The notes beneath the pieces are model-generated. The model saw only the letters and a program-made list of their open reading frames with translations, was not told where the DNA came from and searched no databases. From Alphaproteobacteria bacterium (GTDB lineage Bacteria > Pseudomonadota > Alphaproteobacteria > VGDZ01), in NCBI GenBank assembly GCA_016869515.1, contig VGDZ01000008.1, positions 2,437-66,436 of the forward strand: a DNA stretch of 64,000 nucleotides. The letters are read 5' to 3'. The stretch's first letter is position 1. Every line of letters begins with the position of its first letter. Below are positions 17,443 to 50,461 of the stretch, piece after piece. Position numbers and translations under genes: made by a program.

Positions 17443-18627
17443 TCAAGCCACGGGCGCGAACACCTCGCTGGCGCCTTCGACCCCGCGCAGCGCGTGTCGG
17501 CCGAGCGAGCGCAGCAGGCCCGGCAGATAGGCTGCGACCTCGGCCGAGATCACGATCGGCTGGCCGAGCGGCTTGGCCAGAGATTCCAGCCGCGTGACGT
17601 GGTTGACCGCCGGGCCGATGACGGTGAAGTCGAGCCTGCGGCTGGTGCCGATATTGCCGAACAGCACCTCGCCGATATGGACGCCGAGGCCAAAGCGAAT
17701 CTCGGGCTGGCCGGCCGCGGCACGCTTCCGATTGGTTTCGGCCACCGCCGCCTTCGCCGCCAGCGCCACGTCCAGCGCCGCTGCGCAGGCCGGTCCGTCG
17801 CCGCCCTCGCGCACCGGCAGAATTGCCAGCATGGCATCGCCGATGAATTTCAGGATCTCGCCGCCCTTGGCCGTCACCGGCTCGCCGACGGCATCGAAAT
17901 AGTCGTTGAGCAGGCCGATCACCGTCTCGCGCGGCAGCGTGTCCGACAGCCGGGTGAAGTCGCGCAAATCCGCGAACCAGATCACGGCGCGGATGGTCTC
18001 GCCGTCGCCGCGCTGCACCACGCCCGACAGGATCCGCGCCCCCGCCTCGTGGCCGACATAGGCGTCGAGCAGGTTGATCGCCGTGATCCGCAGGGCGTGG
18101 ATTTCGACGATCCGCGCCAGCAGCATCTGCAGCGCGTACATGCGATCGAGTTGGGCGGCGGTGAATCCGTCCGATCCGTCGGCGACCACCGACAGGGCGT
18201 CGATATGGCCGTTGCCGAAGAACACCGGCATGATGACGTAGTCGGTGGCGCCTTCGGCCTTGAGTTCCTTGAGCAAAGGAAAGCGCGGTTCGACCTCTTT
18301 CAGCCGCACCCGTACGGTCTTGCCCTGGGCGTAGACGATGGGCAGCGGGTTATCGAGATAGTCGACGTCCTTGAGGATCGAATAGGGCGCGTTATAGGCC
18401 ACGACCTCCTGGCCGCGGCGCCAGAAATAGGCCGTGCCGAGGAATTCGGGCCGCGGCGAGCGGCGGAAATAGGCCAAGCGGAACAACGGAATGCCGGCCT
18501 CGACCAGGCGCTGGGCGATGCCGGCGACCAGATCCTTGGTCTCGGTCAGGAGAAAGGCCTCGGTCACCAGCCAACGCGCGATGGGATCGCCGTAATCGGT
18601 GTTGGGCATGGCAATGCGCCGGTCCAT
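17443..18627 (-). CDS. class III adenylate/guanylate cyclase with uncharacterised about 190-aa N-terminal domain
   Basis: 394 aa; C-terminal FADLRDFTRLS ... KFIGDAMLA ... GVHIGEVLFGNIG ... DFTVIGPAVNHVTRLE cyclase motifs. Confidence 0.85.
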   Translation of the reverse strand: MDRRIAMPNTDYGDPIARWLVTEAFLLTETKDLVAGIAQRLVEAGIPLFRLAYFRRSPRPEFLGTAYFWRRGQEVVAYNAPYSILKDVDYLDNPLPIVYAQGKTVRVRLKEVEPRFPLLKELKAEGATDYVIMPVFFGNGHIDALSVVADGSDGFTAAQLDRMYALQMLLARIVEIHALRITAINLLDAYVGHEAGARILSGVVQRGDGETIRAVIWFADLRDFTRLSDTLPRETVIGLLNDYFDAVGEPVTAKGGEILKFIGDAMLAILPVREGGDGPACAAALDVALAAKAAVAETNRKRAAAGQPEIRFGLGVHIGEVLFGNIGTSRRLDFTVIGPAVNHVTRLESLAKPLGQPIVISAEVAAYLPGLLRSLGRHALRGVEGASEVFAPVA

Positions 18628-18689
18628 GGCCGAACGCTACGCCCAAACCGGGCAAAGGCGCAAACCCGCGCCTCGACCGCGACCGGGTT

Positions 18690-18763
18690 CATCGGAAATC
18701 GCGGCCGCGATTCCCCATGAACCGTGAATCGCGGTCCGGAGCGGGGTACGAGGGCATGATTCA
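18690..18763. repeat. Left portion of intergenic mosaic palindromic repeat, interrupted by the IS
   Basis: 18720-18763 aligns with 49693-49736 with 2 mismatches (aaccgtgaatcgcggtccRgagcgggRtacgagggcatgattca). It is preceded by a small hairpin analogous to 49661-49694. Confidence 0.75.
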
Positions 18764-18780
18764 TGTGTGGACGGCTCCCG

Positions 18781-18998
18781 TTGGGCAAGAACTTTCGACG
18801 GCGGCGTGACGATTGGGTCAGATGCATTCATGTGTCCGGCTTGTGTCGCGCGGCATCGTGAGAGCCGCTGGCCATGATGATGTCCTGGGATCGGGTCCTC
18901 ATCACGCTTGCGCGCTTGGTGGCGCGGTGAATCATTCGGGGCGTCCCGATCCTCGGCTTGACCGATCGTCATCGCGTTCGTCGCTCTCCCTTGCCCAA
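18781..18998 (-). ncRNA. Candidate IS-encoded guide RNA (seekRNA / bridge-RNA-like) in the 3' non-coding tail of the IS
   Basis: 266-nt non-coding tail downstream of the transposase stop. It holds short exact matches to both halves of the intact target site and to the IS end junction. Complementary 9-mers ttgggcaag (18781-18789) / cttgcccaa (18990-18998) could close the structure. See finding. Confidence 0.4.
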
Positions 18999-19029
18999 AT
19001 GGTTGGATCGTCGTTGGCGCCGACCCGCC

Positions 19030-20052
19030 TTAGCCTGCGCTCGGCATGGGGCGATAGGCCTCTCCGCGCGCCATCACCGCCCAGGCGATTCGCGCCATCT
19101 TGTTGGCGACGGCGACCGTCACCAGCCGGGCCGGCTTGCGTTCGAGCAGTCGATTGGCCCAGAGGCTGAGGTCGTTGGTTCGGCGACCGGCGAACCGAAC
19201 GACGGCAGTGGCGCCGACGACCAGGAGCTGGCGCAAATAGCGATCCCCCTTTTTCGAAATGCCGCCGAGGCGTTGCTTGCCGCCGCTCGAGTGCTGGCGC
19301 GGCGTCAGCCCCAGCCAAGCCGCGAATTGCCGCCCCGAACGAAATGCGCGTGCGTCGCTTACCGTCGCCGCCAAGGCCGTCGCCGTGATCAGGCCGATGC
19401 CCGGAACGCCCTCCAGTCGCTGACTGGCCGGGTGAGCGCGATGCCAGGCCTGGAGTTCGATCTCGATGGCGCGAACCTGCTCGCTCAGCGCCTCGATCAT
19501 GCGCGCGATCAGGACCAGCGTCCGCCGCGCCAACTCCGGCAGCGCATCCGATCCGCGTTCCAGCACCGTCCAGAGATCGCGCGCCCGTTCCCGGCCCTTG
19601 GCCGCGACAATCCCGTACTCGGCCAAATGCGCCCGCAACGCCGTCACCTGCGCCGTGCGCTGACGCACCAAGAGATGTCGCGCCCGATGCAACATCACGA
19701 CACTCTGCCCCTCCGCCGACTTGATCGGTACGAACCGCATCGTCGGTCGCGTCACCGCCTCGCAGATCGCCTCGGCATCCGCCGCGTCGTTCTTGTTCCG
19801 CTTCACATACGGCTTCACGTAACCGGGCGGCATCAACCGCACATCGTGCCCCAACGCCAATATCTGCCGTGCCCAATGGTGCGCGGTCGCGCAAGCCTCC
19901 AGACCGACCAAGCACGGCTCCAGGCTCCCGAACAGCTTCAAAACCTGATCCCGCCGCAGCTTGCGCCGCAGCGCCACGCCGCCGTCTGCATCGACGCCGT
20001 GAACCTGAAAAACACTCTTGGCGATATCCAGTCCGATCGTGGCAATCTTCAT
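19030..20052 (-). CDS. IS110-family transposase (DEDD recombinase)
   Basis: Track ORF 19030..20100; likely start MKIATIGLDIAKSVFQVHGVD at 20052. GVPGIGLITATALAATV ... LGLTPRQHSSGGK C-terminal domain. Confidence 0.9.
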   Translation of the reverse strand: MKIATIGLDIAKSVFQVHGVDADGGVALRRKLRRDQVLKLFGSLEPCLVGLEACATAHHWARQILALGHDVRLMPPGYVKPYVKRNKNDAADAEAICEAVTRPTMRFVPIKSAEGQSVVMLHRARHLLVRQRTAQVTALRAHLAEYGIVAAKGRERARDLWTVLERGSDALPELARRTLVLIARMIEALSEQVRAIEIELQAWHRAHPASQRLEGVPGIGLITATALAATVSDARAFRSGRQFAAWLGLTPRQHSSGGKQRLGGISKKGDRYLRQLLVVGATAVVRFAGRRTNDLSLWANRLLERKPARLVTVAVANKMARIAWAVMARGEAYRPMPSAG

Positions 20053-20136
20053 GGGGCGGCTCCTCTCCGTTGGTGGCCCGTGACAGCGCCACCTTGGCAC
20101 AGCACGATGCCGTGGAATCGGGAGCCGTCCACCCCA

Positions 20137-20187
20137 TCACGATCCGTCTTGAACCACTTGGTTCAAGACAAATCGATCATGCCCTAG
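20137..20187. repeat. Right portion of the interrupted mosaic repeat
   Basis: tcacgatccgtcttgaaccacttggttcaagacAAatcgatcatgccctag matches 49734-49784 with 2 mismatches. The terminal cta supplies the TAG stop of the gene at 20184. Confidence 0.8.
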
Positions 20188-21047
20188 CCTTGGATCTGCG
20201 ATTGCACGTAGCCGGCGAGCTGCGCCACCAAGGCGGTCATGTCGTCGCGCAGCCGGTCGAAATTGCGCCGTTTGACGAAGGCGTCTTCGTCCATATAGAG
20301 GCCGCGGTTGATCTCGATCTGCAGCGAATGGCGCTTGCGCGCCGGATCCGAGAAGCGCCGCACCAGCTCGACCCCCTTGTAGGGATCGTTGATCTTGACC
20401 CAGTAACCAAGCTTGCGCAACGCGTTGGCGACCAATTGAGTGAATTCGGCCGAGCAGGTCGTGCCGTCGCGATCTCCCAGGACGATATCGGCGCGGCGCT
20501 TGCCGGCATCGGGCGCGCGGGCGTCGCCGACCGCGCCCATCGAATGGCAGTTGACGTGCCAGACCGCGCCGAAATGACCGTAGAGCGCCTCGTAGGAGCG
20601 CCGCATCTGGTCGTGATAGGGCCGATGGTAGCGGACGATGCGCGATTCGACTTCGGTCACGGTCAGCTTGCGGGCGTAGAGCGGCACGCTGTCCGGACCG
20701 ACCAGGCGCCAGATCAGGCCCTTGCCGTCGCGGGTCTTAATCGAAGGCGAGACGGGATAGGGCCAGGGCCGGTCCAACAGCTCGGGATCGATGTCCTTCT
20801 CGTCGCGGTTGGCATCGATGTAGACCCGCGGGAACAGGGCAGCGACCAGGGTGGCTCCGAATTCGGGCGCAAGACCGAAGATCTCGTCGATGAACATGTC
20901 CTCGCCGCGGCGATAGGCCTCGGGCGGAGCCGAAGGCGAAAAATCGGCCGGGTAGGCATAACCCGAATGCGGCGAGTCGAGCAGCAAAGGCAAGGGCGCG
21001 ACGCGCGGCCCGACCAGGCGCAGGACGCCGGGAATCGTTTGCTCCAT
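20184..21047 (-). CDS. N-formylglutamate amidohydrolase (FGase, HutG-like) family protein
   Basis: 287 aa; LLLDSPHSG ... VNCHSM family motifs. Confidence 0.75.
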   Translation of the reverse strand: MEQTIPGVLRLVGPRVAPLPLLLDSPHSGYAYPADFSPSAPPEAYRRGEDMFIDEIFGLAPEFGATLVAALFPRVYIDANRDEKDIDPELLDRPWPYPVSPSIKTRDGKGLIWRLVGPDSVPLYARKLTVTEVESRIVRYHRPYHDQMRRSYEALYGHFGAVWHVNCHSMGAVGDARAPDAGKRRADIVLGDRDGTTCSAEFTQLVANALRKLGYWVKINDPYKGVELVRRFSDPARKRHSLQIEINRGLYMDEDAFVKRRNFDRLRDDMTALVAQLAGYVQSQIQG

Positions 21048-48630: not shown

Positions 48631-49649
48631 ACCATGCCCAGCCCCAAGCCGCCCTGCGCCCGCTCGCGCCGGCCGATCTCGACGCCGTCGTCGCCTTGGA
48701 TGCGGCGCGCGCCGGCCGTTCGCGGCGGGGATATTTCCAGAAACGCCTGGCGGCGGCGCTGCGCGATCCCGCCGGCCATGTCCAGTTCGGCGCCGAGAGC
48801 GGCGGCAAGCTGGTTGGGCACGTGCTGGCGCGGCTGCGCGAAGAGGAGTTCGGGCGCCACGCGCCAGTGCTGGCGATCGAGGCGATCGCGGTCGCGCCGG
48901 AACAGGCCGGCCGCGGCCTCGGCCACCGGTTGATCGCGGCGCTGGAGGACACGATGTGGCGGCGCGGCGTCGACGAATTGCAGACCGACGCCGCCTGGAC
49001 CGACCACGCGCTGCTGCGCTTTTTCGATTCCTGCGGCTTTCGCCTGGCGCCAAGGCAAGTGATCGCGCGTGCCGTCGCCGGCGGCATCGCCCATCCCGCT
49101 CCGGCCGACGACGCCGCGGCGGTGCCGGTGACAGTCGAGCGGCCGGTCGAGATCGACTACGGCGCGCCGGGGCTGGCCGACTACCAGCCGCTGGCGCATG
49201 ATCGCCACGCCGTGCGCTCGATGCGCGCCGACGACCTGGCGGCCATCTCCCGCATCGACCGCCGCATCACTGGCCGCGACCGCAGCTTCTATTTCAAGAA
49301 GCGGCTCGACGAGGCGCTGCTGGATTCGGCGGTGCGGGTGTCGCTGGTGGCCGAGCAGGACGGCGCTCCGGTCGGCTTCGTCATGACCCGGACCGATGCC
49401 GGCGAGTTCGGCCACACCGAACCGACCGCGATCCTGGACACCATCGGCGTCGATCCGGCGCTGACCGGCCAGGGCGTCGGCACGGCCATGCTGTCGCAAC
49501 TGCTGGTCAATTTGGGCGGGCTGCGGATCGAGACCGTCGAGACCGAGGTCGCGCGCGAGGACTTCGCCCTGCTCAAATTCCTTTACGACGCCGGCTTCGT
49601 GCCGGCCCAGCGCCTGGTGTTCGCGCGCGCCGCCAAGCCGCGGCTCTAG
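48627..49649 (+). CDS. tandem GNAT-domain N-acetyltransferase-family protein
   Basis: The ATG at 48627 overlaps the upstream stop (ATGA). 340 aa with two GNAT cores (IAVAPEQAGRGLGHRLI and IGVDPALTGQGVGTAML). Confidence 0.7.
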   Translation: MNHAQPQAALRPLAPADLDAVVALDAARAGRSRRGYFQKRLAAALRDPAGHVQFGAESGGKLVGHVLARLREEEFGRHAPVLAIEAIAVAPEQAGRGLGHRLIAALEDTMWRRGVDELQTDAAWTDHALLRFFDSCGFRLAPRQVIARAVAGGIAHPAPADDAAAVPVTVERPVEIDYGAPGLADYQPLAHDRHAVRSMRADDLAAISRIDRRITGRDRSFYFKKRLDEALLDSAVRVSLVAEQDGAPVGFVMTRTDAGEFGHTEPTAILDTIGVDPALTGQGVGTAMLSQLLVNLGGLRIETVETEVAREDFALLKFLYDAGFVPAQRLVFARAAKPRL

Positions 49650-49660
49650 ACCGCGATCGG

Positions 49661-49784
49661 TTTGCATGGAATCGCAGACGCTATTCCATGCAAACCGTGA
49701 ATCGCGGTCCAGAGCGGGATACGAGGGCATGATTCACGATCCGTCTTGAACCACTTGGTTCAAGACGGATCGATCATGCCCTAG
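49661..49784. repeat. Intact intergenic mosaic palindromic repeat (empty-site copy of the IS target)
   Basis: Hairpin tttgcatggaat/attccatgcaaa (49661-49694). A perfect 34-bp palindrome gatccgtcttgaaccacttggttcaagacggatc (49738-49771) is flanked by gggcatgat/atcatgccc arms. The terminal cta is the stop of the ankyrin gene. Confidence 0.8.
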
Positions 49785-50461
49785 CGGCGGGAATCTACGG
49801 TAAGGATTTCGACCATGCGGGCATAACCCGTTCGCCGCGCGTGATCCAGCGGCGTCAGGCCGGCGCGGTCGGGGATCGAAATATCGGCGCCGGCCCCGAC
49901 CAGGGCGCGCAAGGTCGCCTGATGGCGCGACCCGCCATCGCCCAGCACCACCGCCTCCATCGCCGCCGTCCAGCCCAGATTGTTGACGTGATCGAGCGGC
50001 GCGCCGCCGGCGATCAGCGCCGCCACCACCTCGGCATGGCCAAGATGGGCGGCGGCGATCAGCGCGGTGCCGTCATAGGGCGAGGTGACGGCGCGCGCAT
50101 CCGCGCCCAGCGCCAGCGCCAATTCGACCATCGCCAGGTCGTTCTTGACCGCGGCGATGGTGACGATGTCGTAGCGCCGGGAATCCTTGGCGCGAAGATC
50201 GGCCCCGGCCCGCGCCAGCGCCTTGATCGCCTCGTAATGCGAGCCGTGAGCCGCGATGTGCACGGCGCTGCGGCCATGGCCGTCGCGCGCGTCGAGATCG
50301 GCCCCGGCCGCGATCGCCGCCGCGATCGCCCCGACATCGCCCTTGGCTGCCGCCGCCAGCAGCCCGGAATAGCTCGCGAGCTCGCGTGGCGACGGCGGTA
50401 CTTGCGCCAAGGCCAGCGACGCGGCCAGCCAGATGGCGAATGCCCAAACCCAATGTTTCAT
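49781..50461 (-). CDS. secreted ankyrin-repeat protein
   Basis: 226 aa; signal peptide MKHWVWAFAIWLAASLALAQ; about 5 ANK repeats (G.SAVHIAA..GH.E....L...GADL). Confidence 0.8.
   Translation of the reverse strand: MKHWVWAFAIWLAASLALAQVPPSPRELASYSGLLAAAAKGDVGAIAAAIAAGADLDARDGHGRSAVHIAAHGSHYEAIKALARAGADLRAKDSRRYDIVTIAAVKNDLAMVELALALGADARAVTSPYDGTALIAAAHLGHAEVVAALIAGGAPLDHVNNLGWTAAMEAVVLGDGGSRHQATLRALVGAGADISIPDRAGLTPLDHARRTGYARMVEILTVDSRR

What the first reader, a model, noticed from the sequence alone, without database searches (positions are those of the whole stretch)
18781..18998. Candidate target-guiding RNA (seekRNA / bridge-RNA-like) in the IS tail, matching both halves of the known target
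The 266-nt non-coding tail downstream of the transposase stop contains four notable matches.
1. gtgaatcat (18927-18935) is the exact reverse complement of atgattcac. Those are the 9 nt spanning the insertion point in the intact target (49729-49737).
2. Eleven nt further, cgatcc (18947-18952) is identical to the 6 nt on the right of the insertion point (49737-49742). The two target halves are therefore addressed on opposite strands, as in the bipartite guide loops described for IS110-family bridge RNAs.
3. attcatgtgt (18826-18835) is identical to the left junction (18759-18768). That is, core plus IS left end, preceded by ttgggt, which resembles the complement of the right IS end (acccca). This could be a donor-binding loop.
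4. ttgggcaag (18781-18789) and cttgcccaa (18990-18998) are complementary and could close the whole structure.
By naive 4^-9 counting, a 9-nt exact match to a specified ~20-nt window within 266 nt is expected far less than once. A 3'-located guide RNA is what has been reported for IS1111-type elements.
Basis: partly seen in the sequence, partly recalled or inferred. Interest (0 to 1): 0.7.

Follow-up and report, generated by a model that had tools for sequence, protein, structure and literature searches.

The report
Guide RNA gene of an IS1111-type insertion sequence

Summary
The window holds one intact IS1111-type (IS110-family) insertion sequence on the minus strand, at 18764-20139. It sits without target duplication in the 3-nt bulge of a REP-like hairpin. 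An empty copy of that hairpin lies at 49725-49781.

The 266-nt tail after the transposase stop encodes a roughly 218-nt structured RNA (18998-18781). It has the anatomy of a bridge RNA / seekRNA. This rests on about 90 distinct relatives with different targets and ends. The stems show compensatory changes. Four loop segments track, position by position, the flanking target and the element's own ends.

- **Reader item 1 (18927-18935):** correct. It is the guide for the core plus the right half of the target.
- **Reader item 3 (18826-18835):** correct. It is the guide for the right IS end plus core, with 2-3 nt that mirror the right flank.
- **Reader item 4:** correct. It is the conserved closing stem.
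- **Reader item 2 (cgatcc):** not a guide. It is one strand of a conserved stem, kept in relatives with unrelated targets. The real left-half guide is AAGCG-UG at 18909-18903.
- **"ttgggt":** also a stem strand. The real guide for the left IS end is UCAUCAUG at 18880-18873.

This is a new member of a known kind. Expression was not tested.

The parts
18764..20139 (-). Whole insertion sequence (1374-bp body plus one copy of the TG core at 20139-20138). The second core copy is at 18763-18762, next to the right flank.
   Evidence: Joining the two flanks and removing the IS with one core copy recreates the intact repeat at 49645-49789 without duplication. The family-wide junctions TG|ATGNNG-TGGACGG and CCGTCCA(C/T)ACA|TG define the ends. 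There is a single copy in the window.
19030..20052 (-). Transposase gene, 340 aa (DEDD RuvC-like domain plus Tnp domain).
   Evidence: Pfam PF01548 (E 1e-15) and PF02371 (E 1e-26). The nearest solved structures are the ISCro4 and IS621 bridge recombinases. Aligned there are IGLDIAK, GLEAC, NDAADAEA and GLTPRQHSSG, the last being the GL-P----SG motif.
20119..20132 (-). Left subterminal inverted repeat GTGGACGGCTCCCG, 4 nt inside the left end (TG-ATGG-GG...).
   Evidence: The repeat is conserved in nearly all relatives.
18767..18780 (-). Right subterminal inverted repeat CGGGAGCCGTCCAC, followed by the end ACA and then the TG core.
18781..18998 (-). Predicted bridge RNA / long seekRNA, measured from the 5' strand to the 3' strand of closing stem P1 (218 nt). 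The true transcript ends are unknown.
   Evidence: MFE -89.3 kcal/mol, z = -3.9, 0/200 shuffles fold as well. A covariance model built from relatives gives one hit in the window, 18806-18975 on the minus strand, 156 bits.
18990..18998 (-). P1 closing stem, 5' strand UUGGGCAAG. It pairs with 18789-18781 (reader item 4).
   Evidence: It is conserved in the 74-80% clade with G.U changes, and as GCGAGGG/CCCUUGC in more distant relatives.
18781..18789 (-). P1 closing stem, 3' strand CUUGCCCAA. UUGCCC (18788-18783) would also be the -35 box of the circle-junction promoter.
   Evidence: CTTGC is invariant in 22 relatives. The spacing to the junction is 17 nt, read from the sequence.
18959..18970 (-). 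P2 stem, 5' strand GACGAUCGGUCA. It pairs with 18820-18808.
   Evidence: Helices 1 and 2: 11 of 12 pairs show changes on both sides.
18808..18820 (-). P2 stem, 3' strand UGACCCAAUCGUC. It is structural, not a donor guide.
18945..18952 (-). Outer stem of the target-binding loop, 5' strand GGAUCGGG.
   Evidence: Helices 3 and 4: all 8 pairs show compensatory changes, and 86-96% of cells are paired. Relatives with unrelated targets keep the same sequence.
18888..18895 (-). Outer stem of the target-binding loop, 3' strand CCCGAUCC.
18927..18935 (-). Target guide 1, AUGAUUCAC. It pairs with the top strand (IS orientation) G-TG-AATCAT, that is, position -1, the core and the right half of the target (reader item 1).
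   Evidence: Exact 9-nt complement. An unbiased scan of columns against target positions puts target +2, +3, +4, +6 and -1 on this antiparallel diagonal. For -1 to +7, observed complementarity is 0.42-0.83 and exceeds the maximum of 500 target permutations. Close relatives switch A/G/C at its first base with T/C/G in the target, and C/A at its last base with G/T.
18911..18926 (-). Inner hairpin of the target-binding loop, CGCGC-CACCAA-GCGCG.
   Evidence: Helix 6 (for example GC 47 / AU 46 at one pair).
18903..18909 (-). Target guide 2, AAGCG-UG. [quoted passage not shown] In this copy only -4, -2, -1 and the core match the actual flank GATCG-TG. It is followed by AUGAGG (18902-18897), whose AUG matches the left IS end and whose GG pairs back into the loop.
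   Evidence: Identity diagonal for target -5 to -1 on columns 102-106, observed 0.66-0.85 against a permuted maximum of 0.45-0.62. Clade examples: GCU-UG for aGCT|TG, CAG-UG for cAG|TG, GCG-UG for tCG|TG.
18873..18880 (-). Donor guide 1, UCAUCAUG. It is complementary to the top strand of the circle junction CA-TG-ATG(G), that is, the right-end tip, the core and the left-end start.
   Evidence: It changes with the left end in relatives: ACUUCA for TGAAGT, UCAUCA for TGATGA, ACAUCA for TGATGT, GCAUCA for TGATGC, CCCAUCA for TGATGGG.
18850..18868 (-). Hairpin GCGGC-loop-GCCGC inside the donor-binding region.
   Evidence: Compensatory variants in relatives: GCGGU/ACCGC, GCAGC/GCUGC, GCGAGGC/GCCUCGC, GCGAU/AUCGC. 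It aligns poorly in distant relatives (helix 9).
18826..18835 (-). Donor guide 2, ACACA-UG-AAU. [quoted passage not shown]
   Evidence: The last 5 nt of the right end are mirrored in 90/92 distinct relatives across 6 end variants. The 2 nt after the core equal the right flank in 75/92 and the left IS end in 0/92. Columns 242-243 against target +2 and +3 score 0.89.
20140..20145 (-). Left half of the occupied target (GGATCG in IS orientation), at the base of the intact inner REP hairpin 20141-20175.
18752..18761 (-). Right half of the occupied target (AATCATGCCC in IS orientation).
49725..49781 (+). Intact, unoccupied copy of the target: a 57-nt REP-like hairpin. The insertion point (core 'ca' at 49735-49736) lies in its 3-nt bulge TCA.
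   Evidence: fold -44.7 kcal/mol.

Best explanation
The tail of this IS1111-type element encodes a bridge RNA (long seekRNA) of about 200 nt, transcribed in the transposase sense.

**Anatomy (shown).** Two long-range stems, P1 and P2, close a junction that carries two guide modules.
- Target module: an 8-bp stem closes an internal loop. [quoted passage not shown] A small hairpin sits between them.
- Donor module: it has the same layout. [quoted passage not shown] - Each bottom-strand guide carries 2-3 further bases that match the non-cognate partner: AUG matches the left IS end, and AAU matches the right flank. This is the logic of handshake guides.

**Mechanism (inferred from IS621 and ISEc11 work).**
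- The excised circle joins right end, TG and left end.
- That junction probably creates a promoter, TTGCCC-17-CATGAT.
- The long transcript is processed, and the RNA loads onto transposase dimers.
- The RNA brings the circle junction and the REP bulge (CG-TG-AATCAT) together.
- Serine/DEDD-catalysed strand exchange at TG then inserts the element, in one orientation and without duplication.
For: **The element.**
- The transposase has both family domains and the catalytic motifs.
- There is a 14-bp subterminal inverted repeat, an 87-nt left non-coding end against a 266-nt right one, and insertion without duplication.

**The structure.**
- The 218-nt region folds with z = -3.9.
- RNAalifold on 22 relatives recovers the target-loop stems and P2 with compensatory changes.
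- On 96 model-aligned relatives, 85% of cells pair, 30/37 pairs change on both sides, 0/500 shuffles reach this, and slid controls give 19-39%.

**The guides.**
- The longest core-spanning match to an element's own target averages 7.3 nt, against 4.5 +/- 0.14 with targets permuted. For the left guide the figures are 4.6 against 3.5 +/- 0.11.
- An unbiased scan of columns against target positions finds exactly the two expected diagonals, plus the flank-mirroring extension.
- Within the 74-80% clade, single-base target differences are matched by single-base guide differences.
- The donor guides mirror six variants of the right end (90/92) and follow left-end variants.

**Agreement with the literature.**
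- The order, with the top-strand binder 5' of the bottom-strand binder, is the one reported for IS1111 seekRNAs (PMC11187229).
- The location in the right end and a multi-loop donor site match PMC11208160.
Against: - No transcript, promoter or terminator is shown. The sigma-70 and terminator scans of the integrated copy find nothing.
- The strand is not settled by wobble pairs overall: 133 G.U against 147 A.C cells. Only the two variable hairpins favour the sense strand, 68 against 9.
- In this copy the left guide matches only 3 of 5 flank positions plus the core.
- UCAUCAUG needs a U.G pair at its first base.
- The model-based alignment is fitted to the structure it tests.
- Rfam 15 has no matching family, so no published model could be applied.
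- Single-sequence statistics for the 9-nt match are only p of about 0.05-0.12.
Confidence: 0.88

Rival explanations
1. Only the target arm is the working RNA: a short seekRNA of about 70-100 nt, roughly 18955-18885. The donor-matching segments further 3' would then act as part of a precursor or at the DNA level, rather than as a second guide loop on the same molecule.
For: Siddiquee et al. found that the predominant transposase-bound species in ISEc11, ISPa11 and ISKpn4 is 82-96 nt and carries the two target matches. A longer form of about 154 nt is less abundant (PMC11187229). The target arm here is a self-contained stem-loop.
Against: The donor-side segments covary with the element's own ends. 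The extension mirrors the right flank, not the left IS end, which is hard to explain without base pairing. P1 and P2 enclose both modules and are conserved. Durrant et al. predict donor-binding nucleotides in IS1111 RNAs (PMC11208160).
Confidence: 0.08
2. The conserved tail acts only as DNA, providing transposase-binding sites and subterminal repeats. The matches to target and ends would be by-products of end conservation or of captured target sequence.
For: The right end carries a conserved subterminal repeat. The invariant CTTGC could be a promoter element. Wobble counts do not clearly pick a strand.
Against: Compensatory changes on both sides in 30 of 37 pairs indicate selection on a folded single strand. 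The guide segments change with the flanking target, which is not part of the element. Homologous elements are experimentally RNA-guided (PMC11187229, PMC11208160).
Confidence: 0.03
3. The matches in this copy are chance, and the element is an inactive relic.
For: The single-sequence p-values are modest. There is one copy in the window, and an identical empty target 30 kb away is unoccupied.
Against: The ORF, both repeats and every RNA stem are intact. The matching segments fall exactly in the family's covarying guide columns.
Confidence: 0.02

Closest known systems
seekRNAs of IS1111-family elements (ISEc11, ISPa11, ISKpn4, ISPst6; Siddiquee et al. 2024, PMC11187229)
   Same: - A DEDD transposase of 330-350 aa with the GL-P----SG motif.
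- Subterminal inverted repeats and a long non-coding region downstream of tnp.
- An RNA with one segment pairing with the top strand placed 5' of one pairing with the bottom strand, overlapping at the insertion point.
- A REP hairpin target, as for ISPa11, and no target duplication.
   Different: - The transposase is only distantly related to the studied ones; no ISfinder comparison was possible.
- The best public DNA relatives are about 72% identical, and the best proteins 79-80%.
- The core here is TG.
- The left half of the target is read by only 2-5 nt.
- The published short seekRNA description does not include the donor-matching segments that are evident here.
IS621 / IS110-group bridge RNA (Durrant et al. 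2024, PMC11208160; Hiraizumi et al. 2024, PMC11208158)
   Same: - Two loops, each with two guides reading opposite strands and overlapping at a 2-nt core.
- One loop is for the target and one for the circle junction.
- 2-3-nt extensions match the non-cognate partner (handshake logic).
- The recombinase fold and catalytic residues align.
   Different: - The RNA lies 3' of tnp, in the right end rather than the left.
- The order of the guides within each loop is reversed relative to the transposase orientation: the long top-strand binder is 5', and the short bottom-strand binder plus extension is 3'.
- The subterminal repeats are long.
- The donor site sits in a multi-branch region rather than a simple internal loop.
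- Sequence similarity of the proteins is weak (E about 1e-9, Tnp domain only).
REP-targeting IS110-family elements of Pseudomonas (ISPpu9, ISPpu10, ISPa11; PMC12288879)
   Same: - Orientation-specific insertion at a fixed position of a repetitive extragenic palindrome.
- The circle-junction promoter concept.
   Different: - A different host group: the closest relatives are alphaproteobacterial.
- The insertion point lies in a 3-nt bulge of the hairpin.
- No native promoter or antisense sRNA was identified here.

Membership tests
IS110 family, IS1111 group (insertion sequence) | DEDD transposase with the PF01548 and PF02371 domains, 330-350 aa, with the GL-P----S(T)G motif | tested here: met
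   340 aa. Both Pfam domains score above their cut-offs. GLTPRQHSSG and the D/E/D/D positions align to the ISCro4 and IS621 transposases.
IS110 family, IS1111 group (insertion sequence) | Subterminal inverted repeats of 7-17 bp, a few nt inside the ends | tested here: met
   A 14-bp GTGGACGGCTCCCG at 20132-20119 and 18780-18767. It is conserved across relatives.
IS110 family, IS1111 group (insertion sequence) | The long non-coding region lies downstream of tnp | tested here: met
   The left non-coding end is 87 nt (20139-20053). The right one is 266 nt (19029-18764).
IS110 family, IS1111 group (insertion sequence) | Site- and orientation-specific insertion without target duplication | tested here: met
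   The flanks rejoin exactly to the intact repeat. Relatives with identical RNAs sit at the same target motif in several independent sites.
Bridge RNA / seekRNA | A loop with two segments pairing with opposite strands of the target, overlapping at the core | tested here: met
   18935-18927 is complementary to the top strand over 9 nt. 18909-18903 is identical to the top strand at -4, -2, -1 and the core. The overlap is at G-TG.
Bridge RNA / seekRNA | The guides covary with the targets across orthologues | tested here: met
   Permutation tests and the column scan. Single-base switches occur in the close clade.
Bridge RNA / seekRNA | A second pair of segments matches the element's own joined ends (donor) | tested here: met
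   18880-18873 and 18835-18826. They covary with left-end and right-end variants.
Bridge RNA / seekRNA | A conserved secondary structure that places the guides in loops | tested here: met
   The donor side is a multi-branch region, and its fine structure is less certain (helix 9 is only 57% paired).
Bridge RNA / seekRNA | IS1111-type order: the top-strand match lies 5' of the bottom-strand match | tested here: met
   This holds in both modules, as stated for IS1111 elements in PMC11187229.
Bridge RNA / seekRNA | The RNA is transcribed, processed and bound by the transposase, and is required for transposition | not testable with these tools
   No expression data are available. No promoter or terminator consensus is found in the integrated copy.
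Bridge RNA / seekRNA | A match to a published or curated covariance model | tested here: inconclusive
   Rfam 15 gives no relevant hit at E up to 10. Since close homologues are certainly bridge-RNA carriers, the family is probably absent from that library. The published IS1111 models were not available.

The most novel reading that the evidence does not exclude
In this clade the IS1111-type RNA is the IS621 architecture read in the flipped frame. Each loop has a long guide on the 5' side, and a short guide on the 3' side followed by a 2-3-nt handshake guide for the non-cognate partner (right flank mirrored in 75/92, left IS end in 0/92). This would imply the same order of strand exchange as IS621, on the opposite strand relative to tnp. 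In addition, the left half of the target is read by so few bases (2-5) that the 3-nt bulge of the REP hairpin may contribute structural specificity.
Probability: 0.4. Interest if true: 0.4.

Novelty: new member of a known kind. Interest (0 to 1): 0.3.

Why it matters
It shows that the 2024 bridge-RNA/seekRNA logic can be read directly from sequence in an uncharacterised alphaproteobacterial-type IS1111 element. It also gives base-resolution guide assignments: target CG-TG-AATCAT, and donor ACACA-TG-ATGG.

The family comparison of about 90 distinct RNA/target pairs is a small natural reprogramming table for a compact 340-aa recombinase. It documents handshake-like extensions in the IS1111 group.

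For genome annotation, the 266-nt "non-coding tail" should be annotated as an ncRNA gene. The REP copy at 49725-49781 is a predicted free landing site.

None of this changes current understanding of the system.

Tried and rejected
- **Rfam 15 scan** of 18500-20400 at E up to 10: only spurious miRNA/lncRNA hits in the flank.
- **Exact 19-mer from the target loop** searched in 185k genomes: 6 hits, none an IS copy, which is the number expected by chance.
- **Sigma-70 promoter and intrinsic terminator scan** of the integrated element: nothing.
- **RNAalifold on a plain MAFFT alignment** also paired the two donor guides with each other, and paired GUGAUG with the right-end repeat. I treat both as artefacts of palindromic CAUG and of DNA-level conservation. 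It also missed the local GCGGC/GCCGC hairpin, which manual inspection supports.
- **A long 6-nt handshake:** the AUGAGG after the left guide resembles the left end ATGGGG. This is not supported. More distant relatives have ACCGGG or UUUGGG against ATGCTG or ATGTGG. The GG pairs with CC on the other side of the loop.
- **Kink-turn or C/D-box reading** of the nearly invariant GUGAUG box: no convincing partner was found, so I dropped it (for the literature).
- **Strand call from G.U against A.C counts:** inconclusive overall.
- **Metagenome scan:** it added only three close relatives. Closer ones had to be fetched protein by protein.

Full report
**1. What is in the window**

On the minus strand there is one intact insertion sequence, 18764-20139.
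- It encodes a 340-aa protein (20052-19030) with both IS110-family domains: PF01548 at E 1e-15 and PF02371 at E 1e-26.
- Its nearest solved relatives are the ISCro4 and IS621 bridge recombinases. The catalytic D/E/D/D positions and the GLTPRQHSSG serine motif align with them.
- A 14-bp subterminal inverted repeat, GTGGACGGCTCCCG, lies a few bases inside each end (20132-20119 and 18780-18767).
- The left non-coding end is 87 nt and the right one 266 nt.

Removing the element and one copy of the core from the two flanks recreates a roughly 145-bp repeat that is present intact at 49645-49789. The join is continuous across the junction, so there is no target duplication.

The heart of that repeat is a 57-nt hairpin (49725-49781). 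The insertion point lies in its 3-nt bulge, TCA on the + strand. In IS orientation the target reads ...CAAGACGGATCG-TG-AATCATGCCC....

Comparison with relatives shows that the exchanged core is the dinucleotide TG. The third shared base in this copy is coincidental.

All of this is the definition of an IS1111-group element as given in PMC11187229 and PMC11208160.

**2. Checking the observation**

Their single-sequence significance is weaker than claimed.
- A match of at least 9 nt that spans the core arises in 91 of 2000 dinucleotide shuffles of the tail.
- The 10-nt junction match arises in 13 of 1000 shuffles.
- Shared hexamers arise in 999 of 1000 shuffles.
- GTGAATCAT occurs just twice in the window, once in the tail and once in the intact target.

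The sequence alone therefore made a reasonable lead, not a demonstration.

**3. Relatives**

I fetched 218 loci encoding relatives of the transposase at 55-80% identity. They came from genomes, metagenomes and individual contigs.

Nearly all share the end architecture: left flank, TG, ATGNNG-TGGACGG ... CCGTCCA(C/T)ACA, TG, right flank. This lets the target halves and the donor ends be read for each copy.

Targets differ between lineages. Examples are ..CCGCTTN|TG|GC(A/C)CA.., ..GCGAT|TG|ACCCA.., ..(G/C)CT|TG|AATCAC.. and ..AG|TG|AATCAG...

**4. Structure**

The 218-nt stretch 18998-18781 folds at -89.3 kcal/mol, z = -3.9, and no shuffle among 200 folds as well.

RNAalifold on 22 relatives recovers three elements with many compensatory changes:
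- an 8-bp stem (GGAUCGGG with CCCGAUCC);
- a 3-bp CCU/AGG element;
- a small inner hairpin, and a long-range stem P2.

I built a covariance model from 18 sequences with a hand-checked structure. It hits the window once, at 18806-18975 on the minus strand, with 156 bits. It also hits every family member.

On that alignment of 96 sequences:
- 85% of cells form standard pairs;
- 30 of 37 pairs show changes on both sides;
- none of 500 shuffles reaches any of the five measures;
- sliding the partners by 1-3 columns drops pairing to 19-39%.

The alignment is fitted to the model, so these figures lean towards the structure. The plain-alignment result agrees for the main helices.

It exists as GCGAGGG/CCCUUGC in more distant relatives.

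**5. Guides**

Without using any alignment, I measured the longest exact match spanning the core between each element's tail and its own target.
- For the segment complementary to the top strand it averages 7.3 nt, against 4.5 +/- 0.14 when targets are permuted among elements.
- For the segment identical to the top strand it averages 4.6 nt, against 3.5 +/- 0.11.

I then scanned every alignment column against every target position from -8 to +11. Two diagonals emerge.
- An antiparallel, complementary diagonal covers target -1 and +2, +3, +4 and +6. In the window this is 18927-18934.
- A parallel, identical diagonal covers target -5 to -1. In the window this is 18909-18905.

Every internal position exceeds the maximum of 500 permutations.

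In the 74-80% clade the changes are single bases:

| Element | Top-strand guide | Target it reads | Bottom-strand guide | Left flank it reads |
|---|---|---|---|---|
| Window | AUGAUUCAC | G-TG-AATCAT | GCG-UG | tCG\|TG |
| L167 group | GUGAUUCAA | T-TG-AATCAC | GCU-UG | aGCT\|TG |
| L178 | CUGAUUCAA | T-TG-AATCAG | not listed | not listed |
| L185 | CUGAUUCAC | G-TG-AATCAG | CAG-UG | cAG\|TG |

Item 2 is not. GGAUCG is the 5' strand of the stem that closes the loop.
- It is retained in L195, L002, L003 and L178, whose left flanks are unrelated.
- Elsewhere it changes together with its partner strand.

In this copy the true left guide, AAGCG, matches the flank GATCG at three of five positions. 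This is at the low end of the family range but within it.

**6. Donor side**

A segment about 60 nt before the right end repeats the last five bases of that end plus TG.
- It does so in 90 of 92 distinct relatives, across six end variants: ACACA, AUACA, ACACG, ACAUA, AGACA and ACAGA.
- The next two bases equal the right flank in 75 of 92 and the left IS end in none.

Its partner is (N)CAUCA(UG), just after the target arm. It is complementary to TG plus the start of the left end and follows that end's variants. In the window it is UCAUCAUG at 18880-18873.

**7. How it most likely works**

*Shown:* the anatomy and the covariation.

*Inferred from the experimentally studied relatives (PMC11187229, PMC11208160, PMC11208158, PMC12288879):*
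- The RNA is cut out of a transcript that reads through tnp, or one driven by the promoter formed when the ends join. Here that promoter would be TTGCCC, 17 nt, CATGAT, which is 8 of 12 consensus positions. CTTGC is invariant in relatives.
- The RNA binds transposase dimers.
- One module pairs with both strands of the REP bulge site. The other pairs with both strands of the circle junction.
- Strands are then exchanged at TG.

The 2-3-nt extensions that mirror the non-cognate partner correspond to the handshake guides of IS621.

Read in the flipped frame, each loop has the IS621 layout: a long guide 5', and a short guide plus handshake 3'. This fits the reversed order reported for IS1111 elements. 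I offer this as an interpretation, not a result.

**8. What is not shown**

- There is no evidence of transcription, and no promoter or terminator consensus in the integrated copy.
- Wobble-pair counts do not decide the strand overall (133 against 147). The two variable hairpins favour the transposase sense, 68 against 9.
- Rfam 15 has no family that matches.
- The published IS1111 models were not available to me.

**9. Novelty**

This kind of RNA was described in 2024, and NCBI already names close relatives 'IS110 family RNA-guided transposase'.
- The element itself has no close public copy. The best DNA identity in plasmids is about 72%, the best protein identity is 79-80%, and no copy is found in 185k reference genomes by exact word.
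- It is a new member of a known kind.
Two of its four segment assignments need correcting.

Noticed in passing
window 18671-18763 + 20140-20191, and 49645-49789: The target belongs to a roughly 145-bp repeat present twice in the window at about 90% identity. Its core is a 57-nt hairpin with a 3-nt bulge exactly at the insertion point, so this is REP/BIME-like intergenic repeat DNA.
   Followed up: partly
window 49729-49742: An unoccupied copy of the same target (CG-TG-AATCAT in IS orientation) lies 30 kb from the element. It is either a free landing site or a sign of low activity.
   Followed up: partly
window 18783-18788 with the junction of 18764 and 20137: Joining the ends would create TTGCCC, a 17-nt spacer and CATGAT, a candidate circle-junction promoter. 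The -35-like CTTGC is invariant in 22 relatives and is also the 3' strand of the RNA's closing stem.
   Followed up: partly
L167-L176, L197-L202, L204, L212: The closest relatives (74-80% identity) are inserted next to DUF4096/DDE_Tnp_1 genes, that is, inside other insertion sequences. Their motif is ..(G/C)CT|TG|AATCA(C/G). This contrasts with the REP hairpin used by the window's copy.
   Followed up: partly
L080 2544-2712 and 2911-3079; L059 1104-1270 and 2580-2751; L106 2036-2200 (reverse strand): Some relatives carry two hits to the RNA model, or a weak reverse-strand hit. These could be tandem or orphan RNA modules, or neighbouring IS copies.
   Followed up: no
window 18970-18975 (GCGAUG); alignment A2 columns 1-6: A GUGAUG box just 5' of stem P2 is nearly invariant across the family and looks like a box C. 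No box D partner or kink-turn could be assigned.
   Followed up: partly
window 20184-21047 (minus strand): A 287-aa ORF on the same strand ends 45 nt upstream of the element's left end. Only the REP half-hairpin lies between them, so read-through transcription into the IS is conceivable.
   Followed up: no
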